IMG/VR virus record: IMGVR_UViG_2585427743_000017 | Direction: 5' to 3' (one strand) | Length of the DNA: 6,034 bases | From: a virus | Lineage: Duplodnaviria > Heunggongvirae > Uroviricota > Caudoviricetes | In this document: piece after piece, positions 1 through 6,034 of the stretch | Layout of the letters: each line of letters begins with the position of its first letter | Position numbering within the stretch: position 1 is the first letter of the stretch | Notes under the pieces: model-generated | Databases searched by the model: none | Told to the model about the DNA's origin: nothing | What the model saw: the letters and a program-made list of their open reading frames with translations, nothing else | Position numbers and translations under genes: made by a program

Positions 1-357
1 TATTATCGCCTTAAAGCGCTGATGGAACAGTGCTATCAGGGGCATGCTGATGGAAGATACAGCAAACTTTTGACCAGGCTGAATAATAGCGATCTGCTGC
101 TTCTGGATGACTGGGGGCTGGAACCTCTCTCATCAGAACAGCGTAGCGACCTGCTGGAAATAGTGGATCTGATGTACCAACGAGGCTCAATCATCGTAGT
201 GAGCCAGTTGCCGGTGGAAAACTGGTACAAAATGATCGGAGACTCCACACATGCGGATGCCATCCTAGATCGACTGGTTCATGGCAGTATCAAGATCGAA
301 CTTAAAGGAGAATCAATGCGGAAAATACAATCTCCGTTGACCGAAGGAGATCAGTGA
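1..357 (+). CDS. istB: IS21-family transposition helper ATPase IstB, 3' portion only (N-terminus lies upstream of the window)
   Basis: The reading frame is open from base 1 with no stop before the Met at 22, and ends at TGA 355-357. The translation carries an IstB-type Walker B region (LLLLDDWG) and the conserved C-terminal motif ADAILDRLVHGSIKIELKGESMRK, which resembles the IS21 IstB C-terminus. Family assignment is from memory; the specific IS was not identified. Confidence 0.8.
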   Translation, partial: YYRLKALMEQCYQGHADGRYSKLLTRLNNSDLLLLDDWGLEPLSSEQRSDLLEIVDLMYQRGSIIVVSQLPVENWYKMIGDSTHADAILDRLVHGSIKIELKGESMRKIQSPLTEGDQ

Positions 358-393
358 AGGTAATTTAAAAACGGTTCTGTGAAAGTGACACGA

Positions 394-426
394 ACCGATC
401 TCCATCGATGTTACTCACCGATCTCC
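394..426. repeat. Direct repeat ACCGATCTCC x2 (394-403 and 417-426), candidate multiple terminal repeats / transposase binding sites of the IS end
   Basis: Two exact 10-mer copies 23 bp apart, directly downstream of istB. IS21-family ends are known to carry multiple short terminal repeats. Confidence 0.4.
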
Positions 427-427
427 T

Positions 428-1879
428 TCACGGTAATACGCAAGTGTCTTTCAGCGGTCTGCCGGTATCATTATCGAGCTGACCATCCAGTGCATATCCG
501 TCGATATTTTTTGAGATGTATTTCGCGATATACCCCGCAGCACCGCCCCGGTTAAGGTGTTTCGCCTGAAAACGGTTTCGCGCGGCTCCTCTTTCGTCGC
601 CATCCTCTTTGAGCGCATAGCGACGCATGATTTCGATAATCTGGTTACGCTGGCGTGGATTACAAAAAAGCATCATATGCCAGTGCGGCGTTCCGTCGTG
701 GTGTGGCTCGACGACACGCAAACCGTAGACCTGTAAATCATTATCCTTGAATGCCGTGCGCATCAGGCTCCAGATACGGCAGAGATAACGCTGCGCATCC
801 TTTGGATTAAATGCCTCATCATTCCAGCCGTGATTAAGCTGGACGGTTTTACTTTCGCCTTTTCCGACCTGACGTGTCGGGTGATACTTTGACGGCGTGG
901 TCAGCGTGATAAACATCCCCACATCACCCTCTGCGGCGGCGTAACGCTCAATACCGGCAATGGTGTTCATCAGCTCCATCCGGCGAATTTCAGGATTAGA
1001 AATACTGCCCATCACCTTACTGATAAGGTCGATGCGCTCGCCGGTTTCCCTGTTTTCAAGGTCACACGATTTAAGAAATTCCAGATTTGCCTGGCGGCGT
1101 GCACGCACATCACGAATGGCATGTTTACTGGCATAAGGAGAACGGTCTTTATTCACCTCCCCGACAGCAATCAGTAACGCCTCATGCCAGCGCATACGCT
1201 GGCCTTTAAGCTGATGAGTCCACCACTCATCGTTAAACAGACGGGCAATGGCAGAATATGCCTGCCTCGTGGTCATCTGCCCTTTACGGTATTTTTTCCA
1301 GTAGAGAGGGGAAATATTGAAAGCACGTGCAGCGCCAGCAACATGACCATAGAGGTGAGCCTGCGCCTCATCCGTAAACAGCGATTCTTTTTCGCCATGC
1401 GCATCCACCCAGGCATCGCAGAGTTCCTCATACATCATGAAAAGCTGCGATGAGATACGGGCGGCAAACTTTTTCAGCTCCTTGTCATTCATCCCCGGCA
1501 GACGCGCATAATGGTCACGCTCTGCCAGAAACAGCAACGACGCGTCGGTGTTCATTTCATGGCGCTGATTCACACGCTCAATGCGCGGCCATAAACGACG
1601 CTGAAAAGTGGATGTGAGAAAATAAAACCCGTGCACCGGGCTTTTATTGCGCCGGATGTAGTCATAGCGTGAAGTAAACAGCGAGCGCAAAAAGTAAGGC
1701 AGGCGGTTAATCGTGGATAAAACACCTTGCACCTGACGCATCTCGTCACGTGTAAGGGGTCTTTCGCGCCCGACAGCCTCGCGTGGCGCGTTCCATGCAT
1801 AAGCACCGGTAAGCGCCTTACCGGTGCCTGCGGCAAATGCTGACGGAGGGACAAAACGCCCGGAGGCTTTAACGGCCAT
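428..1879 (-). CDS. A: Phage P2 GpA-type rolling-circle replication initiation endonuclease, C-terminally truncated by the IS insertion (about 483 codons, versus 761 aa for P2 A as recalled)
   Basis: The translation contains the HUH motif (HWHMM) and a YIAKYISK motif. Counting from the ATG at 1879 (MAVKASGRF...), the two tyrosines fall at positions 450 and 454, matching the catalytic Tyr450/Tyr454 of P2 A. The six-frame ORF extends to a TTG at 1921, but ATG 1879 is the likely start. The frame stops at 428-430 within or next to the IS terminus. Confidence 0.8.
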   Translation of the reverse strand: MAVKASGRFVPPSAFAAGTGKALTGAYAWNAPREAVGRERPLTRDEMRQVQGVLSTINRLPYFLRSLFTSRYDYIRRNKSPVHGFYFLTSTFQRRLWPRIERVNQRHEMNTDASLLFLAERDHYARLPGMNDKELKKFAARISSQLFMMYEELCDAWVDAHGEKESLFTDEAQAHLYGHVAGAARAFNISPLYWKKYRKGQMTTRQAYSAIARLFNDEWWTHQLKGQRMRWHEALLIAVGEVNKDRSPYASKHAIRDVRARRQANLEFLKSCDLENRETGERIDLISKVMGSISNPEIRRMELMNTIAGIERYAAAEGDVGMFITLTTPSKYHPTRQVGKGESKTVQLNHGWNDEAFNPKDAQRYLCRIWSLMRTAFKDNDLQVYGLRVVEPHHDGTPHWHMMLFCNPRQRNQIIEIMRRYALKEDGDERGAARNRFQAKHLNRGGAAGYIAKYISKNIDGYALDGQLDNDTGRPLKDTCVLP

Positions 1880-2144
1880 ATGAGCCAAAAGCCTCTGAAC
1901 AACGCTTGCTGAGTTGCTCAACCTGCACGTTTAAATCAGCAAAAGACTTTGCGCTTCCGGTCAGAATATCGTGATGCATCAGGCCTGAAACGAGCTGGCT
2001 TAATTTCGGGTAATAACCAACCACCGCCAGCCATTCCTGACCGGCGTTTTTACCGCTTTCCGCTCTCTTTTTCTCGTGGAGAATAAACTGAAAGCTGTCA
2101 CTGGTAACGACATAACGTTCGCCAATTTCAATACGAATACTCAT
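1869..2144 (-). CDS. Small early-operon protein, P2 orf83 position (function unknown)
   Basis: 91-aa ORF with ATG at 2144 overlapping the stop of the upstream gene (ATGA), and ending 8 nt inside the A start; position corresponds to orf83 of the P2 map. Confidence 0.65.
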   Translation of the reverse strand: MSIRIEIGERYVVTSDSFQFILHEKKRAESGKNAGQEWLAVVGYYPKLSQLVSGLMHHDILTGSAKSFADLNVQVEQLSKRCSEAFGSYGR

Positions 2145-2365
2145 GCCGTTCTCCGGTAATGTTTGTTTTTTGCTTCAAAGACTGACTGACAGGAAACACA
2201 ACGCGTGGCTGACGGGTAAGCCGCACGACGGGCAGCAGGTATTGGCGCGTCACACTCTTCGCAAACCAGCGCAGAAGCACCGCAATGTTTTACCCTTGCC
2301 GCGTTAATCTGGCGCTCCAGTAATTCAGCCTGTTGTTCCTGAATAAAATCTACGTTGTCCGGCAT
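2141..2365 (-). CDS. TraR/DksA-family C4 zinc-finger protein (P2 orf82 position)
   Basis: 74 aa with a CxxC-(17)-CxxC arrangement (CEEC ... CVSC), typical of the TraR/DksA RNAP secondary-channel binders. Its start overlaps the upstream stop (TAATG). Confidence 0.75.
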   Translation of the reverse strand: MPDNVDFIQEQQAELLERQINAARVKHCGASALVCEECDAPIPAARRAAYPSATRCVSCQSVFEAKNKHYRRTA

Positions 2366-2667
2366 TACCAGTTCCTTTTGTCGTTCAGTTTTTTAAATTC
2401 ATCAGCGCAATAGCTGGCGATTTCTGTCGTTAATTTCGTCAGTTCATCCACGGAGGAAATTTGCTTGTGAAATACAGCGCGTTTAACAAGTAAATTGACC
2501 ACATCAGACAGGAGGTTTAATTCACTCTGATAAATCGCGATAACAGATTCAGTTATTTCGCGTTTTTCTTTATCAAGACCAAGTTGAATAAGAGACAAAT
2601 CGCCATTTTTCATAACGGCGATTTTTAAGGCATTGTTCAGTAAAACAACTGAACGAGAACAGGACAT
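2365..2667 (-). CDS. Small early-operon protein, P2 orf81 position (function unknown)
   Basis: ATG at 2667-2665 overlaps the orf80 stop (TGATG) and is preceded by GGGGAGGTG; the six-frame track starts one codon earlier at a TTG. About 100 aa. Confidence 0.6.
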   Translation of the reverse strand: MSCSRSVVLLNNALKIAVMKNGDLSLIQLGLDKEKREITESVIAIYQSELNLLSDVVNLLVKRAVFHKQISSVDELTKLTTEIASYCADEFKKLNDKRNW

Positions 2668-2891
2668 CAAAGCACCTCCCCGCGAGACAAGCCGATGTTG
2701 TGAAATTTTTCCGACTCCTGACTGAGCAGCTCGACTATCTCCACGCGGGATAACTCCGCCTTTGTGATGTGGCGAATCATGGCGTCAAGATGAGAAGAAA
2801 AGCGCGTCGCTGCATCGGCCTGTGCTTCGGTTCTGGCCTGTTGCAGCAGTAATGCGTATTTACCGCACTGATTTTCAGAAACTGTATGCAT
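2667..2891 (-). CDS. Small early-operon protein, P2 orf80 position (function unknown)
   Basis: I prefer the ATG at 2891 (MHTVSENQ...), which is preceded by GGAGAA at a 6-nt spacing, over the GTG at 2924 used by the ORF track. About 74 aa. Confidence 0.6.
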
Positions 2892-2954
2892 GACTTTCTC
2901 CAGGCAAAAAGAAGCCCCGCACAATTAAGTGCGTTAAAAACTCTGGTTAATTAC

Positions 2955-3455
2955 TTAATGCAGATATTGCTCTGGTTTTACCGATGTCAGAATTGTCGGT
3001 GCATACTCAAACAGACTGAATAATTCACGTAATGCACGGAATAAAGCATCACGCCAGTAACATGATTCTTCATTAATTCGCCAGTATGGCTGGTTGAATT
3101 CTTTTTCTGTCAATCTGGCATGCATAAATAAAGTACGCCGCTGACTGACTGTTAAAAAACTAATATATGCATACTCACTTGCACCGACCTGACGGCGTTT
3201 TGAGAATGCCCCACGCAATTCATCAATTGCACAAACCAGCCGTTCACGTTCGACATCGTTCATTTCTTCGAAACGCATCGTTGCGTGACGTTGTTTTAAC
3301 TGCGCATGGAAGCAAACCGTTAGCCGTTCACGTTCCATCATCTGATTATAATAATCACATGTCTCCTGCCAGCGAGGGACGGCCAGATGCTTACCAATTA
3401 TCCGGCGCATAGCTGCTGGCTGTTTTTCGACGAGATTAAGTGTCATCACTGTCAT
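2955..3455 (-). CDS. B: Phage P2 replication protein B (DnaB-helicase-associated, needed for lagging-strand synthesis)
   Basis: 166 aa, identical in length to P2 B, and placed between orf78 and orf80 as in P2. Identity is by recall, not alignment. Confidence 0.75.
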   Translation of the reverse strand: MTVMTLNLVEKQPAAMRRIIGKHLAVPRWQETCDYYNQMMERERLTVCFHAQLKQRHATMRFEEMNDVERERLVCAIDELRGAFSKRRQVGASEYAYISFLTVSQRRTLFMHARLTEKEFNQPYWRINEESCYWRDALFRALRELFSLFEYAPTILTSVKPEQYLH

Positions 3456-3622
3456 TTCCAGACCCTCCGGCTTTTCAGAAAGGTCAGAGCCTTTTTTAAC
3501 GGACTCTGTTTTTTGGTGCGGATAATGATTCCCTTACGCCCCTTACCGTGGGTGATGGTGAAGTCAATCGCCCTGGGGCTTTCGTTACGCAGTAACTGAG
3601 CAATACAACGAGGTTCATTCAT
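3452..3622 (-). CDS. Small basic protein, P2 orf78 position (function unknown)
   Basis: ATG at 3622 is preceded by a strong Shine-Dalgarno (GTTAAGGAGAACCGT-ATG) that contains the cox stop codon. 56 aa, very Lys/Arg rich. The ORF track's longer version starts at a GTG at 3646 inside cox. Confidence 0.6.
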   Translation of the reverse strand: MNEPRCIAQLLRNESPRAIDFTITHGKGRKGIIIRTKKQSPLKKALTFLKSRRVWK

Positions 3623-3632
3623 ACGGTTCTCC

Positions 3633-3908
3633 TTAACGTGGTTCACCGAGACCTAACCACATCAACCAGCCGTCACGAATCTCTTTAGGGCGGCTTTCAT
3701 AAGCCAGTTTTAGTCCGTTATTCCATGCCGGAAGGTATACCCAATATTCACCTGCACGACCTGAAGCTGATTGTGGATCGGTCATATCAATTACAGGCAG
3801 CTTTCCTTTATCGATCATCCGACGAACCGCTCCTGTCGATTTTCCTATTAGTTTTGCGAACTCCTGATAAGGAATCGCATCAGTCATGAGTGTTACTTGC
3901 TTGCTCAT
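3633..3908 (-). CDS. cox: Phage P2 Cox (excisionase / directionality factor and repressor of Pc)
   Basis: 91 aa, first gene of the leftward operon. It is divergent from C and preceded by a GGAGG RBS. The sequence (MSKQVTLMTDAIPYQEFAKLIGKSTGAVRRMIDKGKLPVIDMTD...) matches my recollection of P2 Cox. Confidence 0.85.
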   Translation of the reverse strand: MSKQVTLMTDAIPYQEFAKLIGKSTGAVRRMIDKGKLPVIDMTDPQSASGRAGEYWVYLPAWNNGLKLAYESRPKEIRDGWLMWLGLGEPR

Positions 3909-3945
3909 GTCGTCCTCCAGCCCTCATGAATTGCGTTTAATGCCT

Positions 3946-3951
3946 TATAAT
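3946..3951 (+). promoter_or_regulatory. Candidate -10 hexamer (TATAAT) of the rightward repressor promoter Pc
   Basis: A perfect TATAAT lies 72 bp upstream of the C start codon. No good -35 is visible at a 17-bp spacing (CTCATG), so the assignment is tentative. A Pc start near 3958 would give the roughly 30-nt transcript overlap with Pe described for P2. Confidence 0.4.
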
Positions 3952-3989
3952 GCCTTTTAGTGCACACATCCAAGCACTAAACAATCTAC

Positions 3990-4029
3990 ATCTAAACTAA
4001 ATACTATTGAGATCTAAACACCATGTCAA
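3990..4029 (-). promoter_or_regulatory. Early promoter Pe with operator: -35 TTGACA (4029-4024), 17-bp spacer, -10 TAGTAT (4006-4001), flanked by 8-bp direct repeats ATCTAAAC at 3990-3997 and 4012-4019 (C repressor half-sites O2/O1)
   Basis: Read on the minus strand there are consensus -35 and near-consensus -10 hexamers with a 17-nt spacer. Two exact 8-mer direct repeats, 22 bp centre to centre, straddle the -10, matching the described P2 operator architecture. The -35 overlaps the C start codon. Confidence 0.7.
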
Positions 4030-4322
4030 ACACGATAAGCGAGAAGATAGTCTTAATGCGAAAATCAGAGTATTTGAGCAGACAACAACTTGCTGATTTA
4101 ACAGGGGTTCCGTATGGCACGCTGAGTTACTATGAAAGTGGTCGTTCAACACCTCCAACAGATGTCATGATGAACATCCTGCAGACCCCACAATTCACCA
4201 AATACACTTTATGGTTCATGACCAATCAGATCGCTCCTGAGTCCGGGCAAATTGCGCCCGCTCTCGCACACTTTGGGCAAAACGAAACAACGTCGCCCCA
4301 CTCCGGTCAAAAGACTGGTTAA
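4023..4322 (+). CDS. C: Phage P2 immunity repressor C
   Basis: 99 aa, same length as P2 C, divergent from cox and upstream of int. The sequence (MSNTISEKIVLMRKSEYLSRQQLADLTGVPYGTLSYYESGRSTP...) contains a helix-turn-helix-like segment (QQLADLTGVPYGTLSYYE). Confidence 0.85.
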   Translation: MSNTISEKIVLMRKSEYLSRQQLADLTGVPYGTLSYYESGRSTPPTDVMMNILQTPQFTKYTLWFMTNQIAPESGQIAPALAHFGQNETTSPHSGQKTG

Positions 4323-4361
4323 CAATTCATCGTGAATATATTCATCACAAGTGCCTACTAT

Positions 4362-4384
4362 TGGTGGCTAAATTTCAGCCACCA
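4362..4384 (+). other. Stem-loop in the C-int intergenic region (8-bp stem TGGTGGCT/AGCCACCA, 7-nt loop)
   Basis: Perfect inverted repeat at 4362-4369 and 4377-4384. It is not followed by a U-tract on either strand, so it is not a canonical intrinsic terminator. Confidence 0.4.
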
Positions 4385-4437
4385 CGAAAAAAGCGATTAG
4401 TAGTCGCCAAAAAACACACCACTCGGAGGGTTTTCTG

Positions 4438-5451
4438 ATGGCAATCAAAAAACTCGATGATGGTCGATATGAAGTGGACATCCGCCCTACTGGACGTAAT
4501 GGAAAACGCATCCGTAGGAAGTTTGATAAGAAAAGCGAAGCTGTCGCTTTCGAGAAATACACGTTGTACAACCACCACAATAAAGAATGGCTATCAAAAC
4601 CAACAGACAAGCGACGTCTGTCGGAGCTGACACAGATCTGGTGGGATTTAAAGGGTAAACACGAAGAGCATGGGAAATCTAATCTTGGAAAAATTGAAAT
4701 CTTCACAAAAATAACGAATGACCCATGCGCATTTCAAATTACGAAATCGCTTATCAGCCAGTACTGCGCCACCCGAAGAAGTCAGGGTATTAAACCTTCG
4801 AGTATCAATCGTGATTTAACATGTATTAGCGGCATGTTTACAGCCCTGATTGAAGCGGAGTTATTCTTTGGTGAGCACCCTATCAGAGGAACAAAAAGGC
4901 TTAAGGAGGAAAAACCAGACACAGGCTATCTCACGCAGGAAGAAATTGCCTTACTGCTTGCTGCTCTTGACGGCGACAATAAAAAGATTGCGATTCTTTG
5001 CCTGAGTACTGGGGCACGTTGGGGAGAAGCAGCTCGTTTGAAAGCAGAAAATATCATCCATAACCGCGTCACGTTTGTTAAAACGAAAACAAACAAACCA
5101 CGCACCGTCCCGATCTCAGAGGCTGTTGCCAAAATGATCGCGGATAACAAACGAGGTTTTTTATTCCCTGATGCTGATTACCCTCGCTTCAGACGAACAA
5201 TGAAAGCAATAAAACCGGATTTGCCAATGGGGCAAGCCACACATGCACTAAGGCACAGCTTTGCCACTCATTTCATGATTAATGGAGGAAGTATTATCAC
5301 GCTACAACGGATACTAGGTCACACGCGGATTGAACAAACTATGGTTTACGCTCATTTTGCGCCAGAGTACCTTCAGGACGCCATTTCTCTTAATCCGCTA
5401 AGAGGTGGTACTGAGGCCGAGAGTGTCCACACAGTGTCCACAGTAGAGTAA
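4438..5451 (+). CDS. int: Phage P2 integrase (tyrosine site-specific recombinase)
   Basis: 337 aa, same length as P2 Int, with a GGAGGG RBS 8 nt upstream. Catalytic signature residues are present: R in GARWGEA, H-x-x-R in HALRHSFATH, and Y in HTRIEQTMVYAHF. Confidence 0.9.
   Translation: MAIKKLDDGRYEVDIRPTGRNGKRIRRKFDKKSEAVAFEKYTLYNHHNKEWLSKPTDKRRLSELTQIWWDLKGKHEEHGKSNLGKIEIFTKITNDPCAFQITKSLISQYCATRRSQGIKPSSINRDLTCISGMFTALIEAELFFGEHPIRGTKRLKEEKPDTGYLTQEEIALLLAALDGDNKKIAILCLSTGARWGEAARLKAENIIHNRVTFVKTKTNKPRTVPISEAVAKMIADNKRGFLFPDADYPRFRRTMKAIKPDLPMGQATHALRHSFATHFMINGGSIITLQRILGHTRIEQTMVYAHFAPEYLQDAISLNPLRGGTEAESVHTVSTVE
5423..5442 (-). promoter_or_regulatory. Tandem direct repeat GTGTCCACA x2 (reverse complement TGTGGACA), candidate Int arm-type binding sites of the att P-arm
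   Basis: Two exact 9-mers at 5423-5431 and 5434-5442, overlapping the last codons of int. The reverse complement matches my recollection of the P2 Int arm-site consensus TGTGGACA. Confidence 0.5.
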
Positions 5452-5530
5452 CGTTTAAGGGCTTTCAGTGGTAATTTATGCCGCTCAAACCCGCATTGTA
5501 CCGTTGAAAGCCCCTACTGGTGACACCCTA

Positions 5531-5557
5531 AATCTCCCTTACACGGGCTTATTTTTT
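5531..5557 (-). other. P2 att core (27 bp; reverse complement AAAAAATAAGCCCGTGTAAGGGAGATT), i.e. the prophage/host junction core
   Basis: Exact match, in reverse complement, to the 27-nt P2 attP/attB core as I recall it, located 80 bp past the int stop. No Int arm repeats are found beyond it, consistent with non-phage DNA on the far side. Confidence 0.75.
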
Positions 5558-5621
5558 TATGCATAAGCCCTATCTCTGGTAACCGTCTTCCATTGACCAC
5601 ATCGATAGAATCTCCCTTCAT

Positions 5622-5654
5622 AGCACGATGCCTTTCACGTAACGGCATCGTGCT
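5622..5654. other. Perfect 11-bp inverted repeat (AGCACGATGCC ... GGCATCGTGCT) with an 11-nt loop
   Basis: Seen directly in the sequence between the att core and the lipoprotein gene. No adjacent T-tract, so its function is unclear (protein binding site or RNA structure). Confidence 0.4.
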
Positions 5655-5716
5655 CGCACAGGTTCCGGCTAAGCACAACCAGAACGCGCATGTTTGACGC
5701 TTACCAAAAAATATTC

Positions 5717-6034
5717 TCACTCTCCACATTTGAATGTCAGACGAGCGACGCCATGTAATCCTGCACCTTCTGTCTTCAGGTCAACTATCTGCATTTTTTT
5801 GCCCTGAGTAACACAGAAATGGGCTGCATCATTTTTTACTATATTTTCTGCACCAGATATTCTGCCCCTGGCTAAAGAAGCTTCGGCTTCGGTGTAGTAT
5901 TGGTTATCGAGTTTACGCTGAATATTACTTTTATATGCAAGACCAAATTTACCGATACTTGTCTCATCATTATGCACAGCACAACCAGACACAATAAAAA
6001 TACTAATTAATGATATAGCAGCTATCTTTTTCAT
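5717..6034 (-). CDS. Small lipoprotein of unknown function (105 aa); flanking host gene or cargo gene next to the att site
   Basis: The N-terminus MKKIAAISLISIFIVSGC is a classical lipoprotein signal peptide with a lipobox (VSGC). The ATG is at the window edge, so the RBS is unseen. The coding sequence is AT-rich compared with the prophage. Its length and att-adjacent position are compatible with E. coli yegR, but I cannot confirm that from memory. Confidence 0.6.
   Translation of the reverse strand: MKKIAAISLISIFIVSGCAVHNDETSIGKFGLAYKSNIQRKLDNQYYTEAEASLARGRISGAENIVKNDAAHFCVTQGKKMQIVDLKTEGAGLHGVARLTFKCGE

What the first reader, a model, noticed from the sequence alone, without database searches (positions are those of the whole stretch)
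5531..5620. P2 att core followed by a second partial copy of its first 10 nt
The 27-nt core sits at 5531-5557. Its first 10 nt (AATCTCCCTT) recur exactly at 5609-5618, 78 bp further out. An exact 10-mer so close by is unlikely to be chance. It may be a relic of an earlier or secondary integration, a feature of the bacterial attB neighbourhood, or an extra Int core-type binding site.
Basis: seen in the sequence. Interest (0 to 1): 0.45.

Follow-up and report, generated by a model that had tools for sequence, protein, structure and literature searches.

The report
Host-side look-alike beside P2 att core
The second AATCTCCCTT is real, but it is ordinary E. coli DNA, present at this spot with or without the prophage. 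It lies inside the decayed end of a much older P2-like prophage and was not left by the resident phage.

Summary
The 27-nt P2 att core is at 5531-5557, and its first 10 nt recur exactly at 5609-5618.

The window is the int-side junction of a P2 prophage. The core is the 3' end of the sRNA gene cyaR, and everything from 5558 onward is E. coli DNA running to yegR.

The second copy is polymorphic in 5,426 complete genomes:
- AATCTCCCTT in 2,584 genomes
- AATCCTCCTT in 1,905 genomes
- AATACTCCTT in 35 genomes

Only 812 genomes carry the P2-int junction, and lysogens occur on both main alleles. The sequence after the 10-mer shows no similarity to the rest of the core.

The "host" flank 5571-5606 is nonetheless a decayed P2-type P arm. 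In E. coli, an insert of about 770 bp that contains yegR ends in a decayed P' arm plus a decayed native cyaR 3' end next to yegS. The "empty" site is therefore the left end of a fossil P2-like prophage.

Within that fossil, the 10-mer sits where P2-like phages have the ogr terminator. It is most likely a coincidental or terminator-derived look-alike, not a recombination site. Interest is low to moderate.

The parts
4438..5451 (+). P2 integrase gene (337 aa), reading toward the att core
   Evidence: ORF. Window 443-5557 is 98.4% identical to P2 AF063097, whose int is annotated there.
5417..5443 (+). P' arm Int arm-type sites (direct repeat AGTGTCCACA x2 at 5422-5442)
   Evidence: P2 annotation 'Int, P' arm' at L004 318-344, which is window 5417-5443. 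The repeat is family D2.
5441..5514 (+). Cox-binding region of the P' arm
   Evidence: P2 annotation at L004 342-415, which is window 5441-5514. The sequence is identical to P2 here.
5531..5557 (+). 27-nt P2 att core. It is the 3' end of cyaR: the last 2 bp of the 5' terminator stem, the 6-nt loop, the 3' stem and the U tract.
   Evidence: 27/27 to the annotated attP. P2 homology ends at 5557. In the empty site the same 27 nt end the Rfam CyaR match (RF00112, 100.7 bits, L001 1439-1524).
5558..5608 (+). E. coli flank that is a decayed P2-type P arm. The IHF-site region is lost to a ~15-16-nt deletion. One arm-type Int repeat (TGACCACA within CATTGACCACATCGA, 5591-5605) is intact and the other is degenerate.
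   Evidence: MAFFT alignment to the P2 and K-12-remnant P arms and to 12 other P2-like arms and arm relics next to cyaR. Local alignment gives 30/36 identity, score 38 against shuffles of 14 +/- 2.3, with a maximum of 30 in 5,000. A P-arm HMM built without the core hits 5572-5609 at E = 0.0044. The flank is present in prophage-free strains.
5609..5618 (+). The second copy of AATCTCCCTT. It is host sequence lying where P2-like P arms have the A-run and left arm of the ogr terminator.
   Evidence: Exact match. Present in the empty site. Allele counts are 2,584, 1,905 and 35 genomes. No extension of similarity to the core. Its position relative to P2-like arms is shown.
5622..5654 (.). Hairpin with an 11-bp perfect stem (AGCACGATGCC ... 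GGCATCGTGCT), downstream of yegR and with no U tract
   Evidence: Inverted repeat I2. It folds in the yegR-sense RNA. It is not called a terminator by the consensus scan. The stem is kept in K-12, and in L003 through a change that gives G-U only in the yegR sense.
5717..6034 (-). yegR (105-aa lipoprotein, PF27694), the only gene in the E. coli-specific insert between cyaR and yegS
   Evidence: ORF. GC is 29-34% against about 50% in the flanks.

Best explanation
The window is the int-proximal junction of a P2 prophage integrated into the 3' end of the sRNA gene cyaR (P2 site locI). The core at 5531-5557 is the real recombination site. The second AATCTCCCTT at 5609-5618 belongs to the host side and is fixed at that position in E. 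coli whether or not a prophage is present.

The host side is itself old phage DNA. An ancestor of E. coli took up a P2-like prophage at cyaR, and almost all of it was later lost. What remains is:
- a phage-type cyaR 3' end (ACACGGGC instead of the native ACGCAGGC)
- a decayed P arm (5558-5608)
- low-GC DNA with yegR
- a decayed P' arm
- the decayed native cyaR 3' end next to yegS

Today's P2 integrates into the left att site of this fossil. Inside the fossil, the 10-mer lies where P2-like phages carry the ogr terminator (A-run plus GCCCC arm). Its identity to the first 10 nt of the core is most likely coincidence in drifting, possibly terminator-derived, sequence. It has no role in recombination.

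Shown: host-intrinsic status, polymorphism, P-arm homology, and the outer att relic. Inferred: a single fossil prophage, and coincidence as the origin of the 10-mer match.
For: Host-intrinsic. The empty site L001 has cyaR, the core, the flank and both copies, 100% identical to the window. The flank is found in 5,418 of 5,426 genomes, once per genome, while the int junction is found in 812.

Polymorphic. The exact allele is in 2,584 genomes, AATCCTCCTT in 1,905 and AATACTCCTT in 35. An E. coli B lysogen carries AATCCTCCTT, and the window and four other lysogens examined carry AATCTCCCTT.

Not a core relic. The 30 nt after the 10-mer show no similarity to the remaining 17 nt of any core variant (p = 0.27-0.99). 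No inverted partner half-site is present (read directly from the sequence: GCACGATG against GGGCTTAT, 2/8). The P-arm HMM finds no second arm in 5619-5716.

Fossil.
- Flank against P2 P arm: 30/36 identity, no shuffle of 5,000 reaching the score.
- HMM E = 0.0044, placed directly next to the core.
- Collinear with 12 other P2-like arms and arm relics next to cyaR in Citrobacter, Enterobacter, Scandinavium, Huaxiibacter, E. albertii and E. ruysiae.
- Fuller versions of the relic exist in L107 and L134.
- Escherichia sp. E1V33 and most Enterobacteriaceae have cyaR directly followed by yegS.
- At the exact right boundary of the E. coli insert lies a decayed core (L107 p < 5e-5; L001 p = 0.005).
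- That decayed core is preceded by a P'-proximal relic (anchored p = 0.0002; 1 of 7,742 real 35-mers reaches the score).
- The yegR region is 29-34% GC.
- yegR homologues sit in unrelated loci in other taxa.

cyaR as a P2-type insertion site is listed in PMC3032704.
Against: An exact core 10-mer in a 159-nt flank has a chance probability of only about 0.004.

It is specifically the left end of the core, which is the presumed left Int half-site plus the start of the crossover region.

A divergent lineage (L126) has an 11/11 match, AATCTCCCTTA. The exact form may therefore be ancestral rather than a recent accident.

Similarity of 5606-5640 to P2-like ogr terminators is weak: about 8/17 to the HMM consensus by eye, with low posterior values.

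No rooted phylogeny was built, so the direction of change among the alleles is not established.
Confidence: 0.68

Rival explanations
1. Stacked fossils. The 10-mer is the remnant of the right-hand att core of an intermediate P2-like prophage. That prophage integrated into cyaR after the yegR-bearing element and was then deleted down to its P arm. Under this reading the site records three generations of integration: the third copy, the second copy and the present core.
For: Exact 10/10 match (11/11 in L126) to the left end of the core, in direct orientation, 3 nt after the end of a P-arm relic. Chance probability is about 0.004. Repeated P2-type integration at cyaR is common across Enterobacteriaceae. 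The outer decayed core shows that old cores do persist here.
Against: Nothing after the 10-mer resembles the rest of the core. The 10-mer is preceded by a P arm, not by the P' arm that always lies to the left of a right-hand core. A deletion ending precisely at the core boundary would therefore be needed. No second P-arm relic follows it. The P' relic and the outer core already pair with the inner P arm as a single element.
Confidence: 0.15
2. Accessory Int site. AATCTCCC(TT) is a lone core-type half-site. Together with the intact arm-type repeat TGACCACA 8 nt upstream, it still binds P2 integrase and influences integration or excision at locI.
For: The 10-mer equals the left arm of the imperfect inverted repeat of the core (AATCTCCC / GGGCTTAT; direct reading). 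The K-12 remnant junction and the native/phage core difference that starts at position 13 both place strand exchange just after it. A perfect copy of the arm-type motif CATTGACCACATCGA lies next to it.
Against: 35% of genomes carry AATCCTCCTT, and lysogens occur on both alleles. The relic arm is 15-16 bp closer to the core than in attP and lacks the IHF site, so the geometry of a working P arm is lost. No partner half-site is present. No binding data exist.
Confidence: 0.07
3. RNA-level element of the yegR transcript. On the minus strand the 10-mer reads AAGGGAGAUU (AAGGAGGAUU in K-12). It lies just 3' of the yegR hairpin. It is complementary to the CyaR terminator loop and resembles a Shine-Dalgarno sequence 8 nt before an AUG that opens a 10-codon ORF.
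For: Direct reading of the sequence. The yegR-sense RNA folds so that the hairpin ends 3 nt before this motif. Both main alleles keep a purine-rich Shine-Dalgarno-like core.
Against: There is no evidence that yegR transcripts extend past the hairpin. The mini-ORF changes at the protein level between strains (L003 against L001). The region is drifting fossil DNA, and the K-12 allele breaks complementarity to the CyaR loop.
Confidence: 0.04

Closest known systems
P2 attachment site locI in cyaR (ryeE), and the K-12 ogr-D' P2 remnant at the same site
   Same: The same 27-nt core. The same gene neighbourhood, yegQ-cyaR ... yegR-yegS. cyaR is listed as the insertion site of Wphi2, the K-12 ogr-D' remnant and P2*B in PMC3032704.
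   Different: The K-12 remnant is a recent, strain-specific leftover lying between the two cores. The relic described here lies outside the right-hand core, is present in essentially all E. coli, and is far more decayed. I could not retrieve the primary P2 att papers, so I cannot say whether the similarity of the flank to the P arm has been noted before.
Phage and island integration into the 3' ends of tRNA, tmRNA and sRNA genes, where the element supplies a replacement 3' end and displaces the native one
   Same: The phage-type 3' half (ACACGGGC) now completes cyaR. The native-type 3' end (ACGCAGGC class) survives as a decayed copy at the far boundary of the insert, next to yegS.
   Different: Here the element has been reduced to about 770 bp with one unrelated low-GC gene, and its left att site is reused by present-day P2.
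Lambda-type heterobivalent integrase sites (core-type half-sites plus arm-type sites with IHF and an excisionase)
   Same: P2 attP has annotated P and P' arm Int sites, an IHF site, a Cox region and a core. The 10-mer corresponds to one core-type half-site, and a neighbouring motif corresponds to one arm-type repeat.
   Different: A lone half-site with no inverted partner and no overlap region is not a recombination site. The arm relic lacks the IHF site and the correct spacing.

Membership tests
P2 att core (functional recombination site), applied to 5531-5557 | 27-nt identity with the attP core, and position at the exact boundary between phage and host homology | tested here: met
   27/27 to the annotated attP. 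P2 homology ends at 5557. Host homology begins at 5531 in empty sites. A second exact core is present at the other prophage end in L125.
P2 att core (functional or relic), applied to the second copy at 5609-5618 | Similarity to the core that extends beyond the first 10 nt (27-nt core) | tested here: not met
   The 30 nt after the 10-mer, compared with the remaining 17 nt of four core variants, give p = 0.27-0.99. There is one extra matching base in L126 only.
P2 att core, applied to the second copy | An inverted partner half-site (GGGCTTAT type) across a ~6-nt spacer | tested here: not met
   Direct reading: AATCTCCC TTCATA GCACGATG, where the partner position matches GGGCTTAT at 2 of 8.
P2 att core, applied to the second copy | Bound or cleaved by P2 Int, or used in recombination | not testable with these tools
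   Needs a footprint, gel shift or recombination assay.
Integration scar (att direct repeat bounding an inserted element), applied to the second copy | The repeat lies at a boundary between DNA present and DNA absent in related genomes | tested here: not met
   Homology between lysogens and empty sites runs straight through 5558-5760. The boundaries of the E. coli-specific insert are at the core and at the third copy, not at 5609.
Integration scar, applied to the third copy (L001 2296-2324, outside the window) | A decayed core at the exact boundary of an insert that is absent in relatives | tested here: met
   Alignment with Escherichia sp. E1V33, which has cyaR followed directly by yegS. L107 p < 5e-5; L001 p = 0.005.
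P2-type P arm, applied to 5558-5608 | Lies immediately next to the core on the ogr side and is collinear with P arms of P2-like phages | tested here: met
   (30/36 identity; HMM E = 0.0044).
P2-type P arm, applied to 5558-5608 | Two arm-type Int repeats about 11 bp apart | tested here: inconclusive
   One repeat is intact (TGACCACA). The other is degenerate (GTCTTCC against GTCCACA).
P2-type P arm, applied to 5558-5608 | An IHF site (TGAAATAAAAGG region) between the core and the arm repeats | tested here: not met
   Removed by a ~15-16-nt deletion in most E. coli. Partly retained in L107 and L134.
CyaR/RyeE sRNA (Rfam RF00112) | A covariance-model match above the gathering score | tested here: met
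   Empty site L001 1439-1524 scores 100.7 bits against a gathering score of 47. The window holds only the last 27 nt and gives no match, as expected for the int-side junction.

The most novel reading that the evidence does not exclude
The 10-mer is a genuine remnant of an att core from an intermediate integration. The cyaR-yegS interval would then be a three-layer record of successive P2-like integrations at one sRNA gene, possibly with the half-site and the adjacent intact arm motif still binding Int and contributing to locI being P2's preferred site.
Probability: 0.15. Interest if true: 0.45.

Novelty: new member of a known kind. Interest (0 to 1): 0.25.

Why it matters
For the finding itself, this matters little. 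The repeat does not mark a second integration by the resident phage and should not be used to delimit the prophage or to predict alternative excision products.

The context is more useful in three ways:
- The classical "empty" P2 site locI in E. coli appears to be the left end of a fossil P2-like prophage.
- The 3' half of the E. coli CyaR terminator is of the phage type.
- yegR sits inside that fossil.

This is a clear example of an sRNA gene being remodelled by repeated phage integration. It also warns that sequence flanking an att core can resemble phage arms without being part of the current prophage.

Tried and rejected
- Rfam scan of the window, looking for an RNA at the site: no match. 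This is expected, because only the last 27 nt of cyaR are present.
- A whole-core relic at 5609: rejected, because there is no similarity after the 10-mer.
- A second stacked P arm between 5619 and yegR, which seemed visible by eye (TTCCGGCTAAGCAC..., GTTTGACGCTTACCAAAAAA): not supported by the HMM or by the sliding-window scores.
- A dispersed repeat such as a REP-like element: rejected, because the 33-mer occurs once per genome.
- The 71-aa ORF at 5514-5729 (-), which spans both copies in frame: rejected as a gene. It crosses the phage-host junction, overlaps the end of yegR, and in empty sites would run into cyaR.
- The unanchored local alignment of the region left of the third copy to the P2 P' arm was only marginal (p about 0.05). 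The anchored test was clear.
- The primary P2 att papers and the CyaR paper could not be retrieved. Literature searches found only the E. coli W insertion-site table.
- A consensus terminator scan found nothing in 5400-6034.
- Allele direction could not be rooted.

Full report
**Observation**

AATCTCCCTT occurs exactly twice in the window, at 5531-5540 and 5609-5618. Shuffles predict 0.01 occurrences (repeat family D3). The stretch 5531-5557 is 27/27 identical to the attP feature annotated in phage P2. That feature is AF063097 24356-24382, which equals L004 432-458 and window 5531-5557. Window 443-5557 is 98.4% identical to P2, and the homology stops exactly at 5557. The coordinates and the repeat are therefore correct.

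**What the window is**

The 337-aa integrase gene (4438-5451, +) reads toward the core. P2's annotated P' arm Int sites and Cox region map to 5417-5443 and 5441-5514. To the right of the core the DNA is E. coli. A 311-nt probe (5450-5760) matches 5,418 of 5,426 complete E. coli genomes. In most of them the match starts exactly at 5531. Only 812 genomes also match the phage part.

In a prophage-free strain (L001) the 27 nt are the end of a full CyaR gene. Rfam RF00112 scores 100.7 bits at L001 1439-1524. The first 10 nt of the core are the last two pairs of the 5' terminator stem, the 6-nt loop UCUCCC and the first two pairs of the 3' stem. In an intact lysogen (L125), cyaR-5' plus a core and the P arm with ogr lie at one end. 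The P' arm, a core and this flank with yegR lie at the other end. The E. coli W genome paper lists cyaR as the insertion site of Wphi2 (P2), of the K-12 ogr-D' remnant and of P2*B (PMC3032704).

**Is the second copy linked to the resident prophage? No.**

The empty site L001 reads ...gcctgtgtAATCTCCCTTacacgggcttattttttt atgcataagccc ... cgatagAATCTCCCTTcatagcacg. It is identical to the window from 5531 onward.

The second copy is also polymorphic. I probed with 33-mers in which any usable 28-nt seed word must span the variable bases:
- AATCTCCCTT is in 2,584 genomes.
- AATCCTCCTT is in 1,905 genomes, including K-12 and ATCC 25922.
- AATACTCCTT is in 35 genomes.
- The remaining roughly 890 genomes were not assigned.

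The sequence occurs once per genome, so it is not a dispersed repeat. Lysogens occur on both main alleles. The window, L125, L134, L135 and L136 carry the exact form. The E. coli B lysogen L133 carries AATCCTCCTT, and its junction core itself has a mutation (AATATCCCTT).

**Is it a decayed core?**

The 30 nt after the 10-mer show no similarity to the remaining 17 nt of any core variant (p = 0.27-0.99). By direct reading there is no inverted partner half-site. On the other side of the argument, the chance of any core 10-mer in a shuffled 159-nt flank is 0.004, while a best match of 8/10 is the normal chance result. A divergent lineage (L126) has AATCTCCCTTA, an 11/11 match. The exact form may therefore be old, but I could not root the alleles.

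**The flank is itself phage-derived**

When aligned to P2, the "bacterial" flank matches the P arm on the ogr side. TATCTCTGGTAACCGTCTTC-CATTGACCACATCGA aligns with TATTTCTGGTCA-CGTCCACACATTGACCACATCGA. Identity is 30/36. The score is 38, against shuffles of 14 +/- 2.3 with a maximum of 30 in 5,000. A deletion of about 15-16 nt removes the IHF-site region.

A scan of one genome per species with a cyaR pattern gave two results. Most Enterobacteriaceae have cyaR followed directly by yegS, with the core variant ACGCAGGC or ACGCGGGC. Many others carry P2-like prophages or remnants whose P arms start right after cyaR. An HMM built from 11 such arms, with the core excluded, hits window 5572-5609 (E = 0.0044) and nothing else in the flank. 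Fuller versions of the relic occur in L107 (IHF-region retained) and in the L134 haplotype. E. albertii has a P-arm relic cut by an IS element.

**The right end of the fossil**

Escherichia sp. E1V33 (L027) has cyaR followed directly by yegS. Compared with it, E. coli carries an insert of about 770 bp: the P-arm relic, the second copy, a hairpin, yegR and AT-rich DNA. Exactly at the insert's right boundary lies a decayed core. In L107 it reads AATCTCTCTTATGCAGACTGACGGTTTAT, against the native AATCTCCCTTACGCAGGCTTATTTTTT (p < 5e-5). In L001 it reads AATCCTCCATACTTGAACTGACTTTTTAT (p = 0.005).

The 35 nt to its left resemble the 36 nt to the left of the P2 core. CCATTGCAAGCTCCTGGTGGTAAC-CACTG aligns with CCGTTGAAAGCCCCTACTGGTGACACCCTA. 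The anchored p is 0.0002, and only 1 of 7,742 real 35-mers scores as high. The yegR region is 29-34% GC against about 50% around it. yegR homologues of 66-82% identity lie in unrelated loci in other taxa.

The simplest reading is one ancient P2-like prophage reduced to its two att ends plus yegR. The native cyaR 3' end (ACGCAGGC type) was displaced to the yegS side. The phage-type 3' end (ACACGGGC; ACACAGGC in L107 and L126) now completes cyaR.

**Where this leaves the 10-mer**

It lies 3 nt after the last conserved base of the P-arm relic. P2-like phages have the A-run and GCCCC arm of the ogr terminator at that position. Its similarity to those terminators is weak. It is preceded by a P arm, not by the P' arm that always lies to the left of a right-hand core, and no second P arm follows it.

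I therefore rate the explanations as follows:
- Coincidental or terminator-derived sequence inside the fossil: about 0.68.
- A stacked intermediate att relic: about 0.15.
- A lone Int half-site with some accessory role: about 0.07.
- An RNA-level role in the yegR 3' region: about 0.04.

The common 8/10 alleles and lysogeny on both alleles argue against any strong functional constraint.

**Comparison with what is known**

The core, the cyaR location and the K-12 ogr-D' remnant are known (P2 GenBank annotation). The general pattern of an integrating element replacing the 3' end of a small RNA gene and displacing the native end is established for tRNA, tmRNA and sRNA integration sites (general knowledge). 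I could not confirm from the literature that the universally present locI flank is a P-arm relic, or that the yegR insert is bounded by att relics. The primary P2 att papers were not retrievable.

**Verdict**

The 10-mer itself is of low interest. The fossil context is a modest, testable addition.

Noticed in passing
L001 2261-2324 (outside the window, about 260-290 nt beyond the yegR start at 6034): A third, decayed copy of the att core (AATCCTCCATACTTGAACTGACTTTTTAT) lies next to yegS and is preceded by a P'-arm-like 35 nt. It sits exactly at the right boundary of the E. coli-specific cyaR-yegS insert. A better-preserved version is found in L107.
   Followed up: yes
L002 2489-2510 (K-12-type strain), compared with the intact gene D in L125: The K-12 ogr-D' remnant joins gene D to the right-hand core at ...GGAGAACTCTGC|TACACGGGC. 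The intact D reads GAGAACTCCGC|AACGCCCC at that point, a pseudo-core resembling AATCTCCCT|TACAC. The remnant therefore looks like the product of an Int-type recombination between attR and a secondary site inside D. This would place strand exchange just after the first ~10 nt of the core.
   Followed up: partly
L133 83-92 (E. coli B lysogen, right junction): The junction core carries a point change in its first 10 nt (AATATCCCTT). This would reduce identity between the two prophage ends of the defective P2-like prophage of E. coli B.
   Followed up: no
window 5545-5570: A perfect 8-bp inverted repeat, GGGCTTAT / ATAAGCCC, with a 10-nt loop. Its left arm is the 3' half of the CyaR terminator stem and its right arm is host flank. 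It is absent from P2 attP, and no function is known.
   Followed up: no
window 5672-5683 and 5978-5989: An exact 12-nt direct repeat, AGCACAACCAGA. One copy is in a predicted hairpin of the yegR 3' region and the other is in the yegR signal-peptide/lipobox codons. It is rarer by chance than the 10-mer under study and is unexplained.
   Followed up: no
L003 1683-1850, also L107 and L126; the corresponding point in the window is about 5712: A presence/absence polymorphism of about 170 bp of AT-rich DNA immediately downstream of the yegR stop codon.
   Followed up: no
window 5622-5654: An 11-bp hairpin downstream of yegR. In L003 a G-to-A change in the right arm keeps pairing only as G-U in the yegR-sense RNA. 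This hints that the hairpin acts on the yegR transcript rather than on cyaR read-through.
   Followed up: partly
L134 (NZ_CP173528), between the core and the arm motif: An alternative flank haplotype (GTGCATAAACCATAGAGACGGATTGATCCCAGGTGACC) that is 11 nt longer and closer to the P2 P arm (AAGGATTTATTTCTGGTCAC). The relic therefore exists in several states of decay within E. coli.
   Followed up: partly
L127-L130: yegR homologues (76-82% identity) in another taxon lie between glutaminase and nitroreductase/ivy genes and are always followed by an unannotated ORF of 108-110 aa. yegR is therefore mobile between loci.
   Followed up: no
window 1-442: The first 442 nt of the window do not match P2 in the megablast search, while 443-5557 do at 98.4%. 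This is probably the variable cargo region beyond gene A.
   Followed up: no
L125 1512-4485 (NZ_CP025916): In the genome whose flank is 100% identical to the window, the P2 integrase gene is split by an IS100 insertion. The window's own int is intact.
   Followed up: no
window 5570-5618, minus strand: On the minus strand the second copy reads AAGGGAGA (AAGGAGGA in K-12). This is Shine-Dalgarno-like and lies 8 nt before an ATG that opens a 10-codon ORF (MWSMEDGYQR). The peptide is not conserved between strains.
   Followed up: partly
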